This document shows, piece by piece, positions 14,741 to 64,000 of a stretch of 64,000 nucleotides of DNA (position 1 is its first letter; every line of letters starts with the position of its first letter). The DNA comes from Cetorhinus maximus (lineage: Eukaryota): NCBI RefSeq assembly GCF_964194155.1, contig NC_135909.1:11594001-11658000 (forward strand), given 5' to 3'. The notes under the pieces are model-generated. The model was not told where the DNA came from, did not search any database, and saw only the letters and a program-made list of their open reading frames with translations. Both the position numbers and the translations under genes were made by a program.

Positions 14741-15544
14741 TGGAAACCACAAGAGAAAAAAATTATATTAGATTTATTAATAACTAACGAGAGAGAGTTA
14801 ATATTCTGAAAGTAAATGAGCATCTGGCAACGAGTGACCACAATATGTTAGAGGCAGGGAATGGTCACAGAAATGTAACAATTTTCACCTTAAGTAAGGT
14901 CGGTAAGGGCAGAATGAGCAGGAAGTTGAACAGATTAAAATGTGAACAGCTACTAAACGGCTAAAGGAAACAATCAGAGGCACTCAAAGGTGATTTCAGT
15001 ATAATAGGTGTCTGACGCAAGGCCCAAGGAAGGAAACTTCATGGTGAATTTGGAACTGAATTCCACGTTTTAAACCAGTAATTAAGCAGGAACTGTGATA
15101 TCTGCCCTAATATTGATTAACTGCCTTTGACATGATGCTGTCTTCACTATGATGATTCTCTCGTCCTCGATGGTACATGTCGCAGTGAAGGAAGCTGTTG
15201 TCCAAATTAAAATGATGAATTACTGCAGGGTGTCATTTAGATCGGACATACTGCACCTAATAAATATCAACTTCACGATATTTTTCCATCTTAGAAATTT
15301 CTTATTCAGGTAATGATGGAGTGATAGTGAACGAGAGAAGAATATTCAGACTGTGCCAGCTCGTTGCGAGAAATGGGCTGGTCTCGGCTGGTGTGTGTTT
15401 GCAGCAATTGCAGCTCGTGTCCTCGTGTAAATAAAAACAATTTGGGATATTTGTTGCAAACTGAAGTGTTTACAGGAAGCGAGATTCCAATGTTAAGACC
15501 TGCAAACTGTAAAGAAAAATTAGATAAATTTGTGGGAGTATAAA

Positions 15545-15616
15545 TAGCAGAGGATGGTTTCGATCCATCGACCTCTGGGTTATGGGCCCAGCACGCTTCC
15601 GCTGTGCCACTCTGCT
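15545..15616 (-). tRNA. tRNA-iMet-CAT: Initiator tRNA-Met (CAT)
   Basis: Reverse complement AGCAGAGTGGCACAGCGGAAGCGTGCTGGGCCCATAACCCAGAGGTCGATGGATCGAAACCATCCTCTGCTA. A1-U72 pair and ATCG T-loop match the vertebrate initiator; one G12>A change. Confidence 0.95.
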
Positions 15617-15909
15617 ACACATTGTCAGCTGTGGATGAATGTTACTTTGTGTATTAGGGAGATAAATAGTCACTTGCTTTGTGCTTTTGAGCGATGTGTT
15701 GGGAGGATCACCTTGGCTGCACAATTCCACTTTGCAACACCAGAAAAAGACAAAAAAAACACAGAAAAAAAGGCAGCAAGAGGCTGCCAGGATACACAAG
15801 ATGACAGAGAACGATGCCGAGCAAATTAGCAAGACACTGAGGTGGAGAAACTGATCATTTGTCCAAACCATTCCGTTTGTCAGAGATGTCCCCGGTTTGT
15901 AATAATGAG

Positions 15910-23824: not shown

Positions 23825-24458
<634 letters not shown>

Positions 24459-24487
24459 AACCCGGCTTCAGCACCAAGTACAACAAA

Positions 24488-24503
24488 GGCTCTTTTAAGA
24501 GCC
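24488..24503 (+). other. Histone 3' stem-loop (H3 left)
   Basis: GGCTCT-TTTA-AGAGCC; HDE AAAGAGCTG downstream. Confidence 0.95.
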
Positions 24504-25438
24504 ACTAAATCGACAAATGAAAGAGCTGCGATCTCCTGTTAAACACTCCAGCACTTAAACAACTCGAAGATAAAATTTATTCTCCCTTGCACCGGTTTAT
24601 TTGTCTTGTCGACATAGCGGTTGTAGAATTGAGAGAATACAGATGATGCAGTTATCAATTGCAGCTCAGGTTATGTCTGCGAATATTTTAGGCCAAGGAT
24701 TTTTTTCCAACGAATTGCGGCACAGGGTGAGGTACGGTTTGTAAGTCAATACTCATTGTTATTATAAGGTTACACTATGAACATGAAGCGATTGTCCGAG
24801 AGTAACCCTCCAGTGCGCAGATATTTTTGATGGTTGTTTTTAGTCAGTTATACAGCAAATAAACAGGCCGCTCGTGTCCGTGCCGGACTGACTATCCTTG
24901 ATTAATCCTTGCCTCTCCAAGTGGAAATTAATTGTGTCCCTCAGAATCTTTTTCATAAGTTTCCCTACCACTGATGTTAAGAGTGACTGGCCTATAGTTC
25001 TTTGGTTTATCCCTAGCCCCCTTTTTGAATAATGGAAACCATTAGCTGTCCTCCAGTCCTTTCACCTCTCCTGTGGTCAAAGATTTGAAAATTAATAACA
25101 GGGTGCCTGCAATCTCCTCCCTTGCCTTCCACAGCAGCCTGGGAAAATCTCATCTGCCCGTATAGGAAGGATGTTGTTGCACTAGAGAGGTCATAGCGTT
25201 ATACAGCACAGAAACAGGCCCATCGTAACCGTGCCGATCATCAAGCACCTATCTATTCTAATTCTATTCTCCAGCACTTAGCCCGTAGTACTTTTAGTTA
25301 TGTCGTTTCGAGGGCTCAACTAAATACTTCTCAAACGTTGTGCGAGTTCTTCCTTCGCCATTATTGGTCCAGAATCACTTACAAATTTGGTCCGGCCGCG
25401 GACAGACAATAGTTCACCCTTTCACAGACTCTGTGAGT

Positions 25439-25454
25439 GGCTCTGAAAAGAGCC
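25439..25454 (-). other. Histone 3' stem-loop (H2A left)
   Basis: Reverse complement GGCTCT-TTTC-AGAGCC. Confidence 0.95.
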
Positions 25455-25484
25455 TTTGGGTTATTAGATTAAAGAATGGCCGCT

Positions 25485-25958
<474 letters not shown>

Positions 25959-26683
25959 TCATTGGTCTCTGTTCAATCCACTTATTTGCCTATATTCTTC
26001 ACCAATCAGATAAATGGAAGCAGAAAAGGGCGGGATTTGCAAATAACCGTCAGAACCAGAAAAATGTCCATTTTAAAAAGCCCGCCAATTTCACTGCGGG
26101 AAAGAAGCGGATTAAAGTAAATGTCGTCTTTGGTCTGAGATTTCAAATCCCTTCTCTTTATTTGGTTTTATTCAGCTCGTGTCATCACCAATCGCAGGCG
26201 CGGGTTTTATCATTTTGTTTAAATGTGGTTCATTCTCCTGTCGCTTTCTAACTGTCCCGGGAGGGAATCAATCCCGGGTCACCGCTTTCCCAGGAGTGAA
26301 ACATTCCGTTCAGACTTCACTCTGAACCGAACACCCTTCGCTGTAAAGAGGGAGCTGATCGAGTCCTCAGACTGTTCTTATTCCGCTCTGTAATAATCCC
26401 ACTCCGGCTGTTACCCTGCGGAAAATTAATAAAATGACTCAGTAACTGTTTCAGGAATTGGGGGAAGGGACAATTAAAGTTGAAAACAGCAGCTAATGAG
26501 GCCACTTAAAGGCTGTGATAACAGAATAACCGCTTTCAGCACAAAGCGAAGGCCGATGAGCTAATTAAAGGGTTAGTGTCTGGGTTACAGGACAGGAGAC
26601 ACTAACAGCAGTGGAAGTTATTTTATATTATAATAATCCAGTAGGAAGATGTCGGGTGCAGCTCCTTAGTAGAGATTGTGAGT

Positions 26684-26699
26684 GGCTCTTAAAAGAGCC
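26684..26699 (-). other. Histone 3' stem-loop (H2B left)
   Basis: Reverse complement GGCTCT-TTTA-AGAGCC; HDE-like AAGGAGCTG. Confidence 0.95.
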
Positions 26700-26738
26700 T
26701 TTGTGTTGTGAATGTGTTTTTCAGTCCGTTCGGGGGTT

Positions 26739-27116
26739 TTACTTGGAGCTGGTGTACTTGGTCACCGCCTTTGTCCCTTCCGACACGGCGTGCTTGGCCA
26801 GTTCCCCGGGCAGCAGCAGGCGCACGGCGGTCTGGATCTCCCGGGAGCTGATGGTGCTGCGCTTGTTGTAATGGGCCAGGCGGGAAGCCTCACCCGCGAT
26901 GCGCTCGAAAATATCGCTCACGAACGAGTTCATGATGCTCATGGCCTTAGAGGAGATGCCGGTGTCGGGATGAACCTGCTTCATCACTTTGTAGATGTAG
27001 ATGGCGTAACTCTCCTTCCTCGACTTTCGCCGCTTCTTGCCGCCCTTTCCTGACGGCTTATTCACCGCTTTCTTGGCGCCCTTCTTAGCAACTGGTTTCT
27101 TCTTCTCTTCAACCAT
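26739..27116 (-). CDS. H2B: Histone H2B (left arm, 125 aa)
   Basis: [13 protein letters not shown]…[21 protein letters not shown]…KYTSSK; octamer-like element upstream; 3' stem-loop. Confidence 0.99.
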
Positions 27117-27599
27117 CTTCAATCTCAATTTCAGACACAGAAATAAACCAAACCCCTTCTGTCCGCTCATTAAATAGACAGTCTGACAGATATATGCTAA
27201 TGAGGAATGAGAAAACAACAATTCTTATTGGACATTTTTAAAAGAAAACAAGTTCTTAATTTGTGATTTATTTGATTGGATAGAGAAATCGACCAATCAT
27301 ATTTAGCTTTCTCCACCAATCATAGGCCTCCTTACTGCAATCAGGAAATACTTTTTACAAAGACCCTCTCCAGGCGGAATTTCTCAGTGTGTAAAGATAC
27401 ACCAGGAAATGTCGCCTGGCAGTCGGTGCGAGGGACTGTACGGTAATGTGGGGTTCCCTCAGGAATTGTGAGGCTTTGGTAAAGTCTGTGATTGTGGGAT
27501 TTATTCACTCCCTGATTCTGTGTGTGAGAGTGGGGTTCCTTCACTGTTTGGAAGGCCGTGGTACAGTGTGCGAGGGCTGGATTTCTTCTGTGTCTGTGA

Positions 27600-28420
27600 C
27601 TTGATGGGACCATGTCTCAGTGTTGGATTCACTTGATATCCTGAGGCTCATTGTGCATCTGTCCGTTATTGGTGCATGTAAGTGAAATTATTGGCTCCTT
27701 GGGACTATAAGACAGTGCGGAATTAAATCAGCATGTGTTTCTCTCGGCCACGAAAAGTATTGGATTTATTCTGTACATGTCAATCTCTGTAACTGTATGT
27801 GAATGAGATTCTTTATTTGTCAGTCCATGTCATTGTAGGTCAGAGTTGTATTGATTCTATGTCTTTCAGCCTGTGGTACTATCTCTGAGTCTGAACTTCT
27901 CATTCACTGTCAATATCTGATACTGTGTGTGAATGTGAGATTAACTCTGTACCTGTCAACATCCTTTGCTGAATGGGGGTGTGAAATTCAGTCTGTATCG
28001 GTCAGTCTCTGCTACTGATTCAAAGTGTGTAATTCATTCTCAATAGGTCCATCTCTTGCAATTTTTGACAGAAGTAACCCCACTGTCACATTCGGCACCA
28101 AAGACTGACAATGTAGAATTTGCCTCAATGGATAGTATTGGTATGAGTGGGATCAATTCTCTCTCAATCAGTGGTACTTTATGGAAGCTTGTAAATCATT
28201 TTGTTTCTGATGGACTCTGGTACCCTGTGTAAGCGTTGAAGCCATTTTCTAACTCAGTGCCTGATGCTTTGCAGAAATGAAGGATTCATTTTGTCCCTAT
28301 CAGTTTTTGGCTGTAAGATTTTTCTGTGTTTCTTGGTCTGTGGTACTGTGTGAATGTCAGATTCATTCTGTATCTCTACATCTCTGGGACCAGTGATTAC
28401 TAACTCTCTAGATGTTTGCA
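27600..28420 (+). repeat. Diverged minisatellite variant in the palindrome spacer
   Basis: GTGTGGGATTCATTCTGTATCTGTCAGTCTCTGGTACTG-like units; also at 16730-17070 and 30740-31450. Confidence 0.7.
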
Positions 28421-29639
28421 GAATTGGGTCTACCTGAAAATTTCTCCACTTCAGCGTTAAGTTCACATTTTCATATCAGATTGACAATCTTTTTTTAAAA
28501 TATTTAGCAATCTTTATACACATAAATGTTTAAAAAGTCAGACTTGTCAACTGCTCTTTAGACCTGTAATTATCTCACCTTGTGTTGTGAGTGAGGAGAT
28601 TCCCCACTGGGTCGTGCAAAACAGGAATCTGGCTGGAAATTAATTTCAATGCCTGGAAATCAGGTAGAATACAAGTCTGAATTTCTGATTTACATCCTTA
28701 GTAGATCAGGCTTCTCGCTGGGAGAGTGAATTTGAAAAGTGGTGTTTAAAACCAAACAAACCAAGGTAGATCCTTCCTCATTTGCTGAGGCAAATCCAAT
28801 GAAAGCAGTTATACTGCAGTAGGAGAATTTTGGGATAGGTACCAGACACAGCTCAGGGCAACTAAACCTGCTATCAGGGAGTGTAAAGGGTAATGGAGAA
28901 GGGGATGGCAGATACATGAATCCCAATATAGAGTTATCCATGTTGCAGTTGAAACCTCATCAGTAATCAGCACTGGCTTAGAATAGCTGGGCCTATTAAC
29001 CTCGGGAAAGGATGGATGTCGAATGGATATGACCGCTGTCCATAAATAGAATCAATTGTGTGCATGTGAATAGATAAGTTGAGCTCACTGCACAAAGAAA
29101 AATAGAAAAAGAACAAAAGGAAAATTAAACAGGCCTGCGGGGAAGAATATGTGAGCAGCTGAGCTGCTCTTGCAGAGAGCTGGCACAGATACGATGGGCT
29201 GAGTGGCCTCCCTCTGCTGTAACAATTGCGAGATTCTAATCTATGTAGCATGAGTGTAAGCCTGACTTATGTTTAATATAAAATGTGTTTCAACTGGAGT
29301 TAACAGCTGTGGGTATTAATCAGTTATTATGTCAGAGTTTTGGATTAAAATTCCATCTCTGTCAACACAACCCTGAATGTCTGTATATCACACAATCTGA
29401 TACATCATCTAGCTTGTAGACACTCTGAGGTTGGGGGAGTGGTATGTAATGCATAGTTCAGTCTGTAGTATGGGTACAATATTGGGATTCATGCAAGATC
29501 TTACAAGTGGGTACTGTTTGTCTGATCTCTTTGTCATTTAATGTGTATTTAAGGTTCTCCTTTTGTTTTGGTAACACAGGGCCTTGCAATCTGAGGGGGG
29601 TGTAATTTTGCTCAGCAATTTGCAAAGATCCCACACAGG

Positions 29640-30720
29640 AGTTTATTACACAAAATTAGAACATGTGATTGGGGATCAAACATTAGCATGGATCAAGGAT
29701 TAGTAAATGGACAGAAAACAGTGTCGGAATAAACAGGAATTTTCGGATTGGCAGGCTCTAACTTACTCTTGATAAAACACAGCCATCAGTTACTTACAAC
29801 ATATATTGATGATTTAGTTGGGTACTGAATGGAACATATTCAAGTTTGTTGATGATACAAAATTGGTGGAAAATTAATCTGTGAGGACACAAAAAACCTG
29901 CTAAGGCATTTAGACAGGTTGTCTGAGTTGTCAAGAACATGGCAGATAGAATACAATATGGTAGTGTGGGTGGGCCCAGTTTTGAAGGGGGAAAAAAGAA
30001 CATGTTTGAATGTGAGACTGGAACACGTTTGCACTCAGAGGGAGCTGGGTGTCCTTGTACATGAATTACAGAAAGTAAAACTGCAAGTACAGCAAGCAGA
30101 TAGGAAGGGAAGTGTTATGTTCACATTTGTTCCAAAGGTTTGAATTACAGGAGTGAAAAATCTTCCATTTATCCAGGGCACAATTAAGGCTACACCTGGA
30201 GTACTGTGTGCAGTTTGGTCTCCTTACATAAGGAAGGGCATAGTTGCTTTAGAGGGAGGGCAATAATTGTTCACTAGCTTGGTTTCTGTGACAAGTGGAT
30301 TTCTTATGAGGGGAGATTGAGGAGACTAGGTCTATATTCCCTGGATTTTAGAAGAATACAGGTTATCTAAATGAAACAAATAAAACTCTTAAGCGGCTTG
30401 TCAGGGTAGATGCTAAGAAAATGGTTCTCCTGGCTCCGGAATCTACAACATGTGGTCACCATCTCAGATCACAGCATTGGCCATTTTGGAATGATATGAG
30501 GAGAAATGTCTTCACTGAAAGTGTTGAGATTCTTTGGAATTCTCCACCCCAGAGAGATTTGGAAGCTCAGCCATTGAGTATGTTCCAGACAGAGGTCAAT
30601 TGATTTTGGATACTAGGGATATAAGGAGAGTGCGGCAAAGTGGAGTTGAGGTAGAACATCTGTCTGAATGAATGATGGAGGAGGTCGAATGGCCAAATAG
30701 CCAAGTCCAGCTCCTATTTC
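29640..30720 (+). mobile_element. CR1 ORF2 3' fragment in the palindrome spacer
   Basis: FVDDTK, WQIEYN and HLEYCVQF motifs plus a CR1 tail. Confidence 0.8.
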
Positions 30721-31535
30721 TGAAGGTTTAATGCATCAGTCCATCTATTCTGCTCGATGTGAGATTCAGGTGTATTCTGCACCAGTCAGTCTCTGGTACT
30801 ATATATAAAGCTGGGATCAATTGTATGTCTGTTGGCACCTGGCAAGCGATGTGAATGTGTGATTCAATCTTTATCTGTGATTCATGAACCTGAATGTGAG
30901 TATGTGATTCATTCTCAAATTTCCATTCTATTAGTATGACATTTGAATGTGAAATTTGCATGTCAGTCTTTGACACTGTACATGTGAGAGTTTCATTCCA
31001 TATCTGTTGGACTTTGTGATGTGTGACTGTGGTATTGACTCCGTATTTACCACTTCGTGATACTGTGAGTGTTTTCTCCTTAAGTAACTGCCAGTCTTTG
31101 GTAATTGATGTCTGACAATGTAACTGTGAAGCTTTGGCCTGTTTGTAAGGCATTCTTTCTGTATCTATCAGGCTCTGGTACAGATTGAGCTTTTGGGACT
31201 CAACCTGAATTGTTCAGTGGTACTGGAAATTCATTTTCTATCTCTTAGTCTCTGGTAGAGTGTCTGTGTGGGGATGTTTTTGTCTTTATTTCTGTGTATA
31301 TGTGTAATTAATCCTGTATTACTCAGCCTCTGGTACTGAGTTTACATGTAGGACTCTGGCTGTATTTGTCAGTCACTGGTAACACGTGTGGCTGTGGATG
31401 GAAGATTCTTTCTATAACTGTCAGGATATCATACATGGTTTGATTATGGGATTATTTTAATATAGTTCAATGGTCCTGAATGTAAATTTGGGAATCATTC
31501 TGAAACTCCCATTCTTTAATAATGTGTGTGCGTGA

Positions 31536-31692
31536 GTTGAAGAGTCATGACTCTGTTCTGTTGAAGGGTCATGAGGACTCGAAACGTCAACTCTTTTCTT
31601 CTCCGCCGATGCTGCCAGACCTGCTGAGTTTTTGCAGGTAATTCTGTTTTTGTTTTGGATTTCCAGCATCCGCAGTAGTTTTTTGTTTTTAT
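31536..31692 (+). mobile_element. Short repeat copy with hammerhead-like motif
   Basis: CTGTTGA-A-GGGTC-ATGAG-GACTC-GAAAC-GTC, then the family body. Related copies at 13150-13235, 33453-33552, 36994-37128, 45810-45925 and 63495-63590. Confidence 0.75.
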
Positions 31693-32074
31693 GACTGTGT
31701 GAGTGTTTGTTCCAGCGGACCACAGCCTCAAGAACAAATTTCACTCCCGATACTCCAACCCCCTACCACTCACACACACATACACAATATCCCAGTGAGT
31801 AAGTCGCACAAGTTACAAGAGTTCCGGGAGGAATCCCGCATTTCCGTGCAGTCCCTCTGTGGAGAAAGGCCCCTCGCACCGACAGCCAGACAACAATTCC
31901 CGGTGTATCTTCACAAACTGAGAAACTGGGACTAGAGAGAATCCTGATAGAATATATTTCCTGATTGTCGTAAAAGGGCTAATGATTGGTGGAGAAGTCG
32001 AAATTTGATTGGCCACTTTAAAAATGCAAACAGAGAAAAGTACAAAATAAGTGGCTGTTGTATTTTATTAAATG

Positions 32075-32140
32075 TCCAATCAGAATCATCGTTCTCCCAT
32101 TCCTCATTAGCATTGGTCTGTCAGACTGTCTATTTAATCG
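32075..32140 (+). promoter_or_regulatory. H2B promoter (mirror copy at ~27165-27235)
   Basis: CCAAT, octamer variant CTCATTAGCAT and TATTTAA, conserved in both arms. Confidence 0.7.
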
Positions 32141-32183
32141 GCGCTCGGAAGTGGTTCGTTTTATTCTGCGTCTGAAAGTGACG

Positions 32184-32558
32184 ATGGTTGATGAGAAGAA
32201 ACCAGCTCCCAAGAAGGGAGGCAAGAAAGCCTTAAAGAAACCGGTAGTGAAGGGCGGCAAGAAGCGGCGAAAGTCGCGGAAGGAGAGTTACGCCATCTAC
32301 ATCTACAAAGTGATGAAGCAGGTTCACCCCGACACCGGCATCTCCTCCAAGGCCATGAGCATCATGAACTCGTTCGTGAGCGATATTTTCGAGCGCATCG
32401 CGGGTGAGGCTTCCCGCCTGGCCCATTACAACAAGCGCAGCACCATCAGCTCCCGGGAGATCCAGACCGCCGTGCGCCTGCTGCTGCCCGGGGAACTGGC
32501 CAAGCACGCCGTGTCGGAAGGGACAAAGGCGGTGACCAAGTACACCAGCTCCAAGTAA
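32184..32558 (+). CDS. H2B: Histone H2B (right arm, 124 aa)
   Basis: [13 protein letters not shown]…KYTSSK from ATG 32184; 3' stem-loop. Confidence 0.99.
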
Positions 32559-32597
32559 GACCCCCGAACTGACTGAAAAACACATTCACAACACAAC

Positions 32598-32613
32598 GGC
32601 TCTTTTAAGAGCC
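32598..32613 (+). other. Histone 3' stem-loop (H2B right)
   Basis: GGCTCT-TTTA-AGAGCC-ACCCA. Confidence 0.95.
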
Positions 32614-33856
32614 ACCCACAATCTCTCTGAAAAAGCTATATGATTTCTTTAGTTATAAGTTATGATTTTACTATGGAGCATTTCGAATTTTGAAATTATT
32701 ATTTTGATCACGTTTCAATCAGATTCTCGGTAACGTAGATTTAACTCGTTCAATTGTTGGGCTTCGTTCATGATGTCCCATAAATTAATGACTTGCCGCT
32801 CACGAAGCGATTGTTTTAAGACGCGTCATATTCGACCCCTGTCCCTGGTTTTGGAGAGAGAGCGAATATAACGCAAATGCCTCAGGTTCCAATTCGGTTC
32901 AAGTTTCGCCTCAATAATCGATCAGTTGATTTCCTATTAGCACCGGTTGTGCAGCAAGCTTCAGTCTCGACGCTGGCAAATTTACTCCAAGCATGTTCAA
33001 TTTTGGCTGTCCCAAATATCTACAATTTCCCGTCTATCAGCAGAACGATGTAAATGGCACTTTCAGCCGGCTGCTTAGAAGGTTTCATGACGGATCGAGA
33101 TTATCTAGAATTGATGCCGGATTCTTAAAGCGAATCCGGCATTTAGGATAAAATGTGAAATAGTCCCATTAGGGACGGACATTTTTGAAACTTTGTCGTC
33201 AGACCGTGTTCACTATTAACTGGATTTTCTATATGAAATGTATTTCTTGTTTTATAAATATATCGATGTAGAATTAAAAAAACACATTCCGTAAATTTGC
33301 GCCATTATTTTCGACTTGTTTTCAGATACACATAAACCCAGACAGAAAATCAGAAATTGAAATATACAAATAACTGTAATCCAGGGAAAGAGAGAGAGAG
33401 ATGAAGAGAATGTAACATTCGAATACTAAATACTGAATAACCATTTCCAATTAGGACTCGAAACGTCAACTGTGTTCCTCTCCGTAGATGAATTTTTCCA
33501 GGTATTTTTGTTTTTGTTTCAGATTTCCAGCATCGTCTGTATTTTGCTTTTATCCAATTAGTACTATGTTCGATCCGTTCTTTTTTGGCTTTTTTTTTTA
33601 CAAATTTGGCGGGCTTTTAAAATTTGAAAAAAAGATCGGTTGGAATCTCAAAATTTGGAGCCGGTCTTTTCCGCCCTCACTCCGTCAAGTCTCCGGACTG
33701 GTGAGTTCAGTAGATATCTGATTGGTGATATGAACAACATTATGAGACGCAGCACAAAGTGACCAATCAAGCAATGCCCGCAGCACCATTCCTCCCGAAG
33801 CTATAAGAGAAGCGAATGTGAGAGGATTTCCTCATTCTCTATTAAAGTGTTTGTGA

Positions 33857-34258
<402 letters not shown>

Positions 34259-34288
34259 AGCGGCCATTCTTTTATCTGATAAGCCAAA

Positions 34289-34304
34289 GGCTCTTTTCAG
34301 AGCC
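34289..34304 (+). other. Histone 3' stem-loop (H2A right)
   Basis: GGCTCT-TTTC-AGAGCC. Confidence 0.95.
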
Positions 34305-35028
34305 ACTCACAGAGTCTGTGAAAGGGTGACCTATTATCTGTCTGCCGCGTGCCGAATTTCAGTAATGGTGAAGCGTTTCTAATGATCCGCAAGGACAACC
34401 AACTCGCATCAACAGAGAAATTACATTTCCACCCGCGTGGTTCGGGACTGGAATGCACTGTCTGGAAGTGTAGTGGAGGCAGGTTCAATAGAGGCATTCA
34501 AGAGGGTATTAGATGATTATTTGAATAGAAAAAATGTGCAGGAATGGGGGATGGGGGGAAGCATTAGGTCATAACACTCATTTGGAGAGCAGATGCAGAC
34601 ATGCGCAAGGGCCGAATGGCCTCCCGTGCTGTGCAAATTCTTTGATTCTATGTCTGTGCACCGGAGTCATCACCTCTTGTTGCTTGAGGCATTGCCTTTA
34701 TTGACATCATGAGCACTGACTTGTAACCCGCAGCTCACCCTTTGCTTGGGATTGATGTCTGCTCGCAGTATTTAATACATTTTCACAGCCGCTTTTTATT
34801 GGAAGTGACCTACAGCACTAAGGTGACCGCAGTCCCAATTTTCTGCTGAAATTAATATACCATCTGCGCTACAATTTACAACTGCATCGTCTGTGATTAT
34901 CAATCCCACAAAAGAGGTTTGTAGACAAGAAAAATAAACTGATGCAAGGGAGCAAATTGTATCTTCGCGATGTCTAAGTCCTGGAGTGGACAACAGGAGA
35001 TTGCAGCTCTTTCATTTGTCGATCTGTT

Positions 35029-35044
35029 GGCTCTTAAAAGAGCC
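35029..35044 (-). other. Histone 3' stem-loop (H3 right)
   Basis: Reverse complement GGCTCT-TTTA-AGAGCC; HDE AAAGAGCTG. Confidence 0.95.
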
Positions 35045-35073
35045 TTTGTTGTACTTGGTGCTGAAGCCGGGTT

Positions 35074-35679
<606 letters not shown>

Positions 35680-57342: not shown

Positions 57343-57433
57343 GGCTCTGTGGCGCAACGGATAGCGTGTTGGGCTTCTAGCTGCTGTTGTACAAGAGATT
57401 TAAAGGTTGTGGGTTCGAATCCCACGAGAGTCG
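57343..57433 (+). tRNA. tRNA-Arg-TCT: tRNA-Arg (TCT) with 18-nt intron (57380-57397); possibly a pseudogene
   Basis: GGCTCTGTGGCGCAACGGATAGCGTGTTGGGCTTCTA/intron/ATTTAAAGGTTGTGGGTTCGAATCCCACGAGAGTCG. Has a G7.G66 mismatch and three G-U pairs in the anticodon stem. Confidence 0.88.
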
Positions 57434-63010: not shown

Positions 63011-63675
63011 CTTGTGTGCCTCTCTCGGCACTGCTGTCCCTGTCCTGCTCACCGTCTCGCTTGCCGGACTGCTCGGGGCCTCAGTAATATCCCGCTCCTC
63101 CGCCTGCTTCCTACCCCTCACCGCCTCACTTGCTGTTCTGCTTGTCACCATCTCCTCAGTTCTTGTGGTGAGATGGGCGGCGACAGGGGTCAGGAGGGAG
63201 GTGCCGATAGGGAGGTGAGGGGCTTGGTAGTCGGGTAGCGAGCGGTGCGGCAGAAGGGTTGGCGTGTAGCGCAGCGAGCCAGGCGGGGAGGGTCTGGCGT
63301 CTGTGCACCTGGCATTCGGGAGCAGGGGAGTGAGTGAGAGGCGGCAAGTGGGCGACCGTCAACGGCTGAACAACGAGGACGTCAGCGGTGGGAGGAAGGG
63401 CGCACGCACCGGCAGACTGAGTGGGTACCGAGTTCCTGTTCCAGCTCGGTGTAAGGAGTTACAGTGTAAAACTGATCACAATTCTAGCATTGCTGAGTTC
63501 TGATGAAATGTCATCGACCTGAAACGTGAACACCCTTTCACTGTCCACGCTGCTGCCTGCCATGAGGTGTAATTCTTAATTGTTTTCTGGTGTTACGACA
63601 GAAACCCAAAAGGAGGGTTGAGGCACTCTGGAGGACAATGAATACACAAAGCGGTTATCTCGCTTACCTGTGGAA

Positions 63676-63766
63676 GGCTCGTTGGTCTAGAGGTATGATC
63701 CTCGCTTCGGGGATTTTCGTTAAATGATCGTGCGAGAGGTCCCGGGTTCAAATCCCGGGCGAGCCC
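63676..63766 (+). tRNA. tRNA-Pro-CGG: tRNA-Pro (CGG) with 19-nt intron at position 37/38 (63712-63730)
   Basis: GGCTCGTTGGTCTAGAGGTATGATCCTCGCTTCGGG/GATTTTCGTTAAATGATCG/TGCGAGAGGTCCCGGGTTCAAATCCCGGGCGAGCCC. Removing 19 nt leaves a 72-nt near-canonical vertebrate tRNA-Pro. Confidence 0.93.
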
Positions 63767-64000
63767 TCGTGTGTTACCACTTGTAATACATATTTCTTTA
63801 CGAGCGAAAAGGCGGGTTTTACTTAAACCCGGGCGAGTTTTTAGAACCTGAGAAGTCATTATAACCAAATTATCACTGCAAAACAGGTGGAGTAAATGCA
63901 GAAACGGTTGCTCATGTAATCGGACGGTTAATTTATCCTAATAAGAGAATGAGTTCATTTATCCCAAGAAGAGAATGAGTGTAACTGAAACTTGAGTTTT

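What the first reader, a model, noticed from the sequence alone, without database searches (positions are those of the whole stretch)
63676..63766. tRNA-Pro(CGG) with a 19-nt intron at the canonical site
Seen: both halves are near-canonical tRNA-Pro with intact A/B boxes and stems (one U7-G66 wobble), split one base 3' of the CGG anticodon by GATTTTCGTTAAATGATCG. Known: the standard intron-bearing tRNA families in mammals are Tyr-GTA, Ile-TAT, Leu-CAA and Arg-TCT, not Pro-CGG. Inference: this may be a lineage-specific or ancestrally retained intron-containing isoacceptor family. I cannot confirm whether it is already catalogued for cartilaginous fish.
Basis: partly seen in the sequence, partly recalled or inferred. 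Interest (0 to 1): 0.7.

Follow-up and report, generated by a model that had tools for sequence, protein, structure and literature searches.

The report
Proline tRNA intron with unpaired anchor
This is one of over a hundred proline tRNA gene copies in this genome that carry a short insert at the standard tRNA-intron site, a class not among the four listed for humans; its branch (anticodon CGG) is likely transcribed and likely spliced, although it lacks the base pair that the splicing enzyme is reported to need.

Summary
Observation confirmed: 63676-63766 is tRNA-Pro(CGG) with a 19-nt insert at 37/38. It is neither unique nor CGG-specific. The genome holds at least 104 insert-bearing Pro genes (of 100 listed: 32 CGG, 49 TGG, 19 AGG) against 8 well-conserved intronless ones, and 42 of 43 Arg-TCG matches also carry an insert. 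AGG and TGG introns keep the anticodon-intron (A-I) pair that TSEN needs. All 32 CGG introns, this one included, have U·U there, while the next three pairs stay in register. A copy on another contig, flanked by a 15-bp target-site duplication, spans a 14-nt leader, the intron and the trailer up to the T-rich stop: likely a retroposed unspliced Pol III transcript. No RNA evidence of splicing was obtained. The window's 9-copy sub-branch shows no exon conservation. In seven birds, 88 of 89 Pro genes are too short for an intron. Ten paper searches found no description, but GtRNAdb could not be checked. The scan noted Pro introns before, here and in other genomes; the notes shown did not mention the U·U site.

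The parts
63662..63675 (+). Likely 14-nt 5' leader of the Pol III transcript
   Evidence: Homology of the target-site-flanked copy L042 (G000:C4) starts exactly here; inferred, no RNA data
63676..63711 (+). tRNA-Pro(CGG) 5' exon, positions 1-37, with A box; anticodon at 63708-63710
   Evidence: ARAGORN and script; differences from the intronless gene
63712..63730 (+). 19-nt insert at the canonical 37/38 site; base -3 (63728) is U, giving U32·U at the A-I position; U33-A, C34-G and G35·U can pair in register
63731..63766 (+). 3' exon, positions 38-73, with B box; G66 gives the U7·G66 wobble; discriminator C73
63767..63792 (+). Likely 3' trailer
   Evidence: Homology of L042 ends at 63792, its last 3 nt shared with the start of the target-site duplication
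63793..63799 (+). Interrupted T run (T3-C-T3), likely weak Pol III stop; first T4 at 63817-63820
   Evidence: sequence; that interrupted T runs can stop Pol III is recalled, not from a call

Best explanation
The locus is one copy of a duplicated tRNA-Pro(CGG) gene family with an insert at 37/38, which is likely transcribed by RNA polymerase III and likely spliced by TSEN and RTCB, probably with low efficiency, through an in-register anticodon-intron helix that has U·U in place of the usual A-I pair. Shown: the anatomy; the family size; spread by segmental duplication (usually 2-3 kb or more of shared flank at 92-99.7% identity); the in-register complementarity; U at intron position -3 in every CGG copy. 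Inferred: transcription from about -14 to the T-rich tract at +27 in the germ line (from a retrocopy of a close relative); excision by TSEN; a mature tRNA marked by A16 that would read CCG. Odds that the branch is spliced: AGG and TGG about 0.85, CGG about 0.55. The window's 9-copy sub-branch (extra G, U26C, A66G) is likely dispensable: intact in 5 of 9 copies, including this one, but not under visible purifying selection; odds that this copy yields working tRNA about 0.4.
For: Family: 104 matches, 0 in the reversed-pattern control; 8 intronless genes at 94-100% identity, one of them CGG. Splice geometry: among 30 distinct loop-intron combinations, U33 pairs with intron -4 in 30, G35 with -6 in 30, and U32 with -3 in 18; the 12 exceptions are all CGG-type introns. 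Eight divergent intron lineages pair at 28 of 40 cells (positions 32-36) against a shuffle mean of 18.6, p=0.002. Transcription: L042 is a 128-nt insert between exact 15-bp direct repeats, running from -14 to just before the T tract, with a 3-nt overlap between RNA end and target, as described for tailless retropseudogenes (PMC5322556 passages). L112 is a weaker second case, ending at +20 with a 9-of-10 repeat. Selection: in 25 of 40 flank-ascertained copies exons carry 17 changes against 31.7 expected, p=0.002, and introns change faster than flanks. 27 of 47 CGG-family copies examined have an intact cloverleaf and invariant bases. Two exon-level hits to the endonuclease domain PF01974 over the cut-off.
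Against: U·U at the A-I position in 32 of 32 listed CGG genes and 46 of 46 family introns of 18 nt or more. In fly and human reporters a C-C mismatch there blocked splicing, and G-U or U-G gave almost no product in fly cells; U·U was not among the pairs described (PMC6614914 section 20). Over all 40 flank-ascertained copies there is no exon conservation (54 changes against 47.2 expected); the 25-copy group was defined after removing two clades; the window's sub-branch has an exon excess (8 of 22 changes, 3.0 expected, p=0.006). Both retrocopies retain an intron, and none of the 12 intronless hits among the 40 scored has A16. Constrained folding gives the in-register helix a probability of 0.00 for the window copy and prefers C34-G36 pairing with the last three intron bases; it also fails to predict the helix in U-A families, so it does not discriminate. 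Invariance of intron -3 to -5 is uninformative, since five other T positions are invariant too. An intronless CGG gene exists, so splicing of this branch is not obligatory.
Confidence: 0.55

Rival explanations
1. The CGG branch is a transcribed but splicing-dead family. It arose from an intron-bearing TGG-like gene, lost the A-I pair, and is carried along in the duplicated blocks of contig C32. Its precursor is degraded, and CCG codons are read by the intronless C16 gene and by Pro-UGG. The AGG and TGG branches would still be true spliced families.
For: U·U in all CGG copies; reporter data on unpaired A-I positions; no exon conservation over all 40 flank-ascertained copies and an exon excess in two clades; 20 of 47 copies broken; only unspliced retrocopies found; yeast destroys pre-tRNAs with a disturbed anticodon-intron structure (PMC10275265 passage).
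Against: Exon deficit of changes in the other 25 copies, although a flank-built tree should inflate exon counts; 27 intact copies with flanks diverged by about 5-8%; three neighbouring pairs stay in register, including a C34-G pair that TGG and most AGG introns lack.
Confidence: 0.33
2. The CGG precursor is cut in a shifted register (U32 with intron -4, or the anticodon pairing with the last three intron bases), so that some products keep one extra G and have an 8-nt anticodon loop. Such a tRNA would be a +1 frameshift-prone proline tRNA.
For: U32 can pair with intron -4 in 30 of 30 distinct introns (shift -1); the alternative C34-G36 helix is the predicted minimum for the window copy. That an extra G in a tRNA-Pro loop causes +1 frameshifting is recalled, not from a call.
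Against: In the shifted register the neighbouring pairs fail (35 paired in 2 of 30); TSEN is described as measuring from the tRNA body; such a product should be selected against; no data.
Confidence: 0.05
3. The insert is a one-off insertion, an assembly error or a SINE-like repeat, with no relation to tRNA splicing.
For: Most copies lie in one duplicated region of C32.
Against: Unrelated introns of 12, 17 and 18 nt in near-perfect genes on C12 and C22 keep the A-I pair; copies spread with kilobase flanks, not as tailed retroposons; Arg-TCG shows the same pattern with C32-G in 42 of 42 inserts.
Confidence: 0.02

Closest known systems
Human and mouse intron-containing tRNA families Tyr-GUA, Ile-UAU, Arg-UCU, Leu-CAA, spliced by TSEN and RTCB (PMC10275265, PMC10485636; passages)
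   Same: Single short intron at 37/38; intact L-shaped body; anticodon-intron helix in the same register; mixtures of intron-bearing and intronless genes occur in Arg-UCU and Leu-CAA
   Different: Isotype Pro (all three anticodons) is not among the four; intron-bearing copies outnumber intronless ones about 13 to 1; the CGG branch has U·U at the A-I position
Saccharomyces cerevisiae tRNA-Pro(UGG): 10 genes with 30-33-nt introns (PMC13079951, passages)
   Same: Proline tRNA with a canonical intron
   Different: Fungal; longer introns; one anticodon only; no homology of introns tested or implied
Tailless tRNA retropseudogenes (PMC5322556, passages)
   Same: L042: no oligo(A) tail, precursor leader kept, 15-bp target-site duplication, short overlap between RNA end and target
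   Different: Described for therian L1; here a non-mammalian genome, and the copy keeps its intron and trailer; the mobilising element was not identified
Zebrafish maternal tRNA genes in repetitive clusters versus isolated later-stage genes (PMC11417395, passages)
   Same: Large repetitive cluster (C32, about 9-21 Mb, with histone genes) beside a few isolated intronless genes elsewhere
   Different: No expression data here; the zebrafish main text does not mention tRNA introns and its supplement could not be read

Membership tests
Canonical eukaryotic TSEN-spliced intron-containing tRNA genes | Single intron between positions 37 and 38 | tested here: met
Canonical eukaryotic TSEN-spliced intron-containing tRNA genes | Intact mature domain with A and B boxes | tested here: met
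   Window copy passes all 20 stem pairs (one extra G·U) and 15 invariant bases tested
Canonical eukaryotic TSEN-spliced intron-containing tRNA genes | A-I base pair between N32 and the third-last intron base | tested here: not met
   U·U in the window copy and in 32 of 32 listed CGG genes; met in 19 of 19 AGG and 47 of 49 TGG genes (the 2 exceptions carry CGG-type introns)
Canonical eukaryotic TSEN-spliced intron-containing tRNA genes | Anticodon-intron helix in register, leaving a 3-nt bulge at the 3' splice site | tested here: inconclusive
   Complementarity at 33-35 is present, but folding does not favour the helix in this or in the U-A families
Canonical eukaryotic TSEN-spliced intron-containing tRNA genes | Pol III transcription with leader, trailer and T-rich terminator | tested here: inconclusive
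   Retrocopy boundaries at -14 and +26 support it for a close relative in the branch; no RNA reads for this copy
Canonical eukaryotic TSEN-spliced intron-containing tRNA genes | Intron removed in vivo, giving a mature tRNA | not testable with these tools
Canonical eukaryotic TSEN-spliced intron-containing tRNA genes | Splicing endonuclease encoded in the genome | tested here: met
   Two exon-level PF01974 hits over the cut-off; whole genes not assembled
Eukaryotic cytosolic tRNA-Pro | NGG anticodon, G37, C73, 72-nt body matching the intronless Pro genes | tested here: met
   69 of 72 positions identical to L031
Tailless retropseudogene (for L042, not the window copy) | Target-site duplication of 8-35 nt, no oligo(A) tail, homology limited to the RNA | tested here: met
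   Exact 15-bp repeats at L042 4829-4843 and 4972-4986; homology limited to 132 aligned columns

The most novel reading that the evidence does not exclude
This lineage keeps germline-type arrays of intron-bearing Pro (AGG, CGG, UGG) and Arg-UCG tRNA genes beside a handful of intronless housekeeping genes, and its Pro-CGG array is efficiently spliced with a natural U·U at the A-I position. That would add two isotype groups to the vertebrate TSEN substrates, supply a natural exception to the A-I pair rule, and make tRNA splicing a gate on proline supply in eggs or embryos.
Probability: 0.25. Interest if true: 0.7.

Novelty: new variant of a known kind. Interest (0 to 1): 0.47.

Why it matters
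Reviews list four intron-bearing tRNA families for humans and treat the A-I pair as the one conserved requirement of eukaryotic tRNA splicing. A vertebrate genome in which about nine in ten Pro and Arg-UCG genes carry introns shows that the vertebrate set is not fixed. It offers three sister branches with nearly the same exons but U-A, U-G or U·U at the critical pair, a ready-made test of what TSEN tolerates. The A16 mark tells spliced CGG-branch products from those of the intronless gene, so one tRNA-seq run would decide the matter. The mechanism itself is textbook, and automated annotation may already list these genes unremarked.

Tried and rejected
RNA evidence: no RNA holder listed among 14 runs; this is no evidence either way. 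On the 5' side (4 of the 14 runs), contigs of a second organism (run X5) cover the flank and 5' exon, and one reaches 6 nt into the intron position: too short to count as a bridge. A depth-4 contig of run X9 covers 67 nt of upstream flank and 12 nt of exon, so it is not a tRNA transcript. Thermodynamic folding does not discriminate between branches (the folding part had an offset error and was discarded, its intactness table is unaffected; one search timed out and was redone). The first exon-versus-flank comparison used copies picked by gene similarity, which favours conserved exons; I replaced it by a flank-ascertained set. The pairing test at positions 32, 33, 35 (23 of 24) was chosen after seeing the data; only the 32-36 test is relied on. 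My recollection that chicken has intron-bearing Pro genes was not supported: 13 of 13 chicken rows are 72 nt. Ten paper searches (two of them on retrocopies and the A-I pair) gave no paper on vertebrate Pro introns. Two papers asked for by DOI were not held, among them the 2020 WIREs review on tRNA introns, which may bear on novelty. The zebrafish supplement was unreadable; the tRNAscan-SE 2.0 supplement is held cut and has no elephant shark entry. GtRNAdb and tRNAscan-SE were not available.

Full report
Observation. The window holds at 63676-63766 (+) a tRNA-Pro(CGG) split after G37 by 19 nt: exon 1 63676-63711, insert 63712-63730, exon 2 63731-63766. ARAGORN finds it only with intron search on. 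The mature part differs from this genome's intronless Pro-CGG gene (L031, G000:C16) at 3 of 72 positions, G16A, U26C and A66G, the last giving the U7·G66 wobble. It passes all stem pairs and invariant bases tested. An interrupted T run follows at +27 and the first T4 at +51.

Family. The window is G000:C32:11594001-11658000. A DNA search with the gene scored 40 of 271 candidates, all matches, 5 of them identical. An exact gapped pattern found 104 insert-bearing Pro genes and none with the reversed control; of the 100 listed, 32 are CGG, 49 TGG and 19 AGG, and 95 lie on C32 between about 9 and 21 Mb. Intronless genes are few: 7 by pattern, 8 at 94-100% identity by a search with L031, one of them CGG (40 of 212 candidates scored, so lower bounds). 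The CGG copies share usually 2-3 kb or more of flank at 92-99.7% identity, so they spread by segmental duplication. Single AGG genes on C12 (two) and C22 have near-perfect exons and unrelated introns of 18, 12 and 17 nt, which points to an old family. Arg-TCG behaves alike: 42 of 43 matches carry a 16-17-nt insert at 37/38; that check followed a lead from earlier scan notes.

Splice geometry. Eukaryotic pre-tRNAs pair N32 with the third-last intron base, the A-I pair (PMC10275265 and PMC10485636, passages). Read, that base pairs with U32 in 19 of 19 AGG genes and 47 of 49 TGG genes (45 A, 2 G); the two exceptions carry CGG-type introns. In Arg-TCG it is G opposite C32 in 42 of 42. In all 32 CGG genes it is U, so U·U; also in 46 of 46 family introns of 18 nt or more. 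The neighbours stay in register: over 30 distinct loop-intron combinations U33 pairs with -4 in 30 and G35 with -6 in 30, and CGG introns add C34-G at -5. Eight divergent lineages pair at 28 of 40 cells against a shuffle mean of 18.6, p=0.002; the lineages are not fully independent. In reporters a C-C mismatch at the A-I position blocked splicing in fly and human cells, and A-U, U-A, G-U and U-G reduced it in fly cells; U·U was not among the pairs described (PMC6614914, section 20 read). Folding does not settle it: the helix is not favoured in the window copy nor in the U-A families.

Transcription. L042 (G000:C4) matches the window only from 63662 to 63792. It lies between exact 15-bp direct repeats, has no A tail, starts 14 nt before G1, ends just before the T tract, and overlaps the right repeat by 3 nt. 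This fits a tailless retropseudogene (PMC5322556, passages) made from an unspliced primary transcript, so a close relative of the window gene was likely transcribed in the germ line; it lacks U26C and A66G, so it is not the window copy itself. L112 (C11) is a weaker second case. None of the 12 intronless hits among those scored has the A16 mark, so no spliced retrocopy of this branch was seen; modified mature tRNAs may be poor templates (recalled).

Selection. To avoid picking copies by their exons I took the 40 best matches to the downstream flank (40 of 78 candidates scored), built a tree on flanks and counted changes. All 40: exons 54 changes, 47.2 expected, no conservation. A decayed 6-copy clade and the window's 9-copy clade show exon excess (23 versus 9.3; 8 versus 3.0, p=0.006). 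The other 25 show a deficit (17 versus 31.7, p=0.002) with introns changing faster than flanks. The split is post hoc, and a flank tree inflates non-flank counts. High mutation in transcribed tRNA genes, offset by purifying selection, is reported (PMC6130373, abstract only), so exon excess may mean transcribed but dispensable. Of 47 family copies examined, 27 are intact and 20 broken; 5 of 9 in the window's clade are intact.

How it most likely works. Pol III likely starts near -14 and stops at the T tract. TSEN would bind the tRNA body and cut after G37 and before U38, the 3' site being positioned by a helix of U33-A, C34-G and G35·U stacked over a U·U pair; RTCB would join the halves. I put this at 0.55 for the CGG branch, about 0.85 for AGG and TGG, and about 0.4 that the window copy itself yields working tRNA. 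The main rival (0.33) is a transcribed, splicing-dead CGG branch.

Comparison with what is known. Humans have introns in Tyr-GUA, Ile-UAU, Arg-UCU and Leu-CAA; budding yeast has them in Pro-UGG (PMC13079951, passages); gain and loss of introns by isoacceptor is common in yeasts (PMC4090602, section 18 part 1). In the supplementary table of PMC8044555, 88 of 89 Pro rows from seven birds span 69-75 nt; one flycatcher Pro-AGG spans 84 nt. Ten searches of the paper library found nothing on vertebrate Pro introns. A key 2020 review was not held, the zebrafish supplement was unreadable, and GtRNAdb could not be consulted, so automated catalogues may already list these genes. PMC8450103, PMC9858662 and PMC4536317 (passages) had nothing on the point. 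In zebrafish, maternal tRNAs come from repetitive clusters and later ones from isolated genes (PMC11417395, passages); the C32 cluster with its histone genes resembles that layout, which is inference only. Earlier scan notes report Pro introns in at least six genomes and twice in this one; they are unchecked notes, and the lines shown did not mention the U·U site or this retrocopy.

Verdict. Real and more than chance. It works like a canonical TSEN substrate, but the CGG branch fails the A-I pair test, so I file it as a new variant of a known kind. Interest 0.47.

Noticed in passing
window 57343-57433 (+): tRNA-Arg(TCT) with an 18-nt intron at 37/38 and a C32-G A-I pair, but a decayed body (three G·U pairs in the anticodon stem, one acceptor mismatch); likely a pseudogene.
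   Followed up: partly
window 15544-15617 (-): tRNA-Met(CAT) gene, initiator-like by its sequence (label recalled).
   Followed up: no
window 23931-35484: Histone genes (two H3, two H2A, two H2B reading frames, named from their translations) with five histone 3' stem-loops.
   Followed up: no
G000:C32, 42 sites with C19 and C1610; one intronless match on C27: Arg-TCG genes with a 16-17-nt insert at 37/38 and a canonical C32-G pair, often about 7 kb from a Pro-CGG gene.
   Followed up: partly
L042 4829-4986 (G000:C4): Unspliced pre-tRNA-Pro(CGG) retrocopy with leader and trailer between 15-bp target-site duplications; maps a likely transcript start and end.
   Followed up: yes
L112 about 291-420 (G000:C11): Second dispersed CGG-type copy with a shortened 13-nt intron, ending at +20, with an imperfect 10-nt flanking repeat.
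   Followed up: partly
L050, L077, L117: Copies with a TGG anticodon but CGG-type intron and flanks and a broken acceptor stem: anticodon change by C-to-T decay, not true Pro-TGG genes.
   Followed up: partly
L040 (G000:C12), L041 (G000:C22): Three isolated Pro-AGG genes with near-perfect exons, T-run terminators next to the gene and unrelated 12-, 17- and 18-nt introns; the best candidates for old, working intron-bearing Pro genes.
   Followed up: partly
L110 (G000:C23): Decayed intronless Pro-AGG copy that appears repeated head to tail with a short spacer.
   Followed up: no
PMC8044555 Table S4, flycatcher CM001988.1:104954049-104953966: One Pro-AGG row spans 84 nt where similarly placed genes in other birds span 72; a 12-nt insert or an assembly error.
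   Followed up: no
window about 63490-63550: Piece of a very abundant interspersed repeat just upstream of the gene (high depth in three of four runs laid).
   Followed up: no
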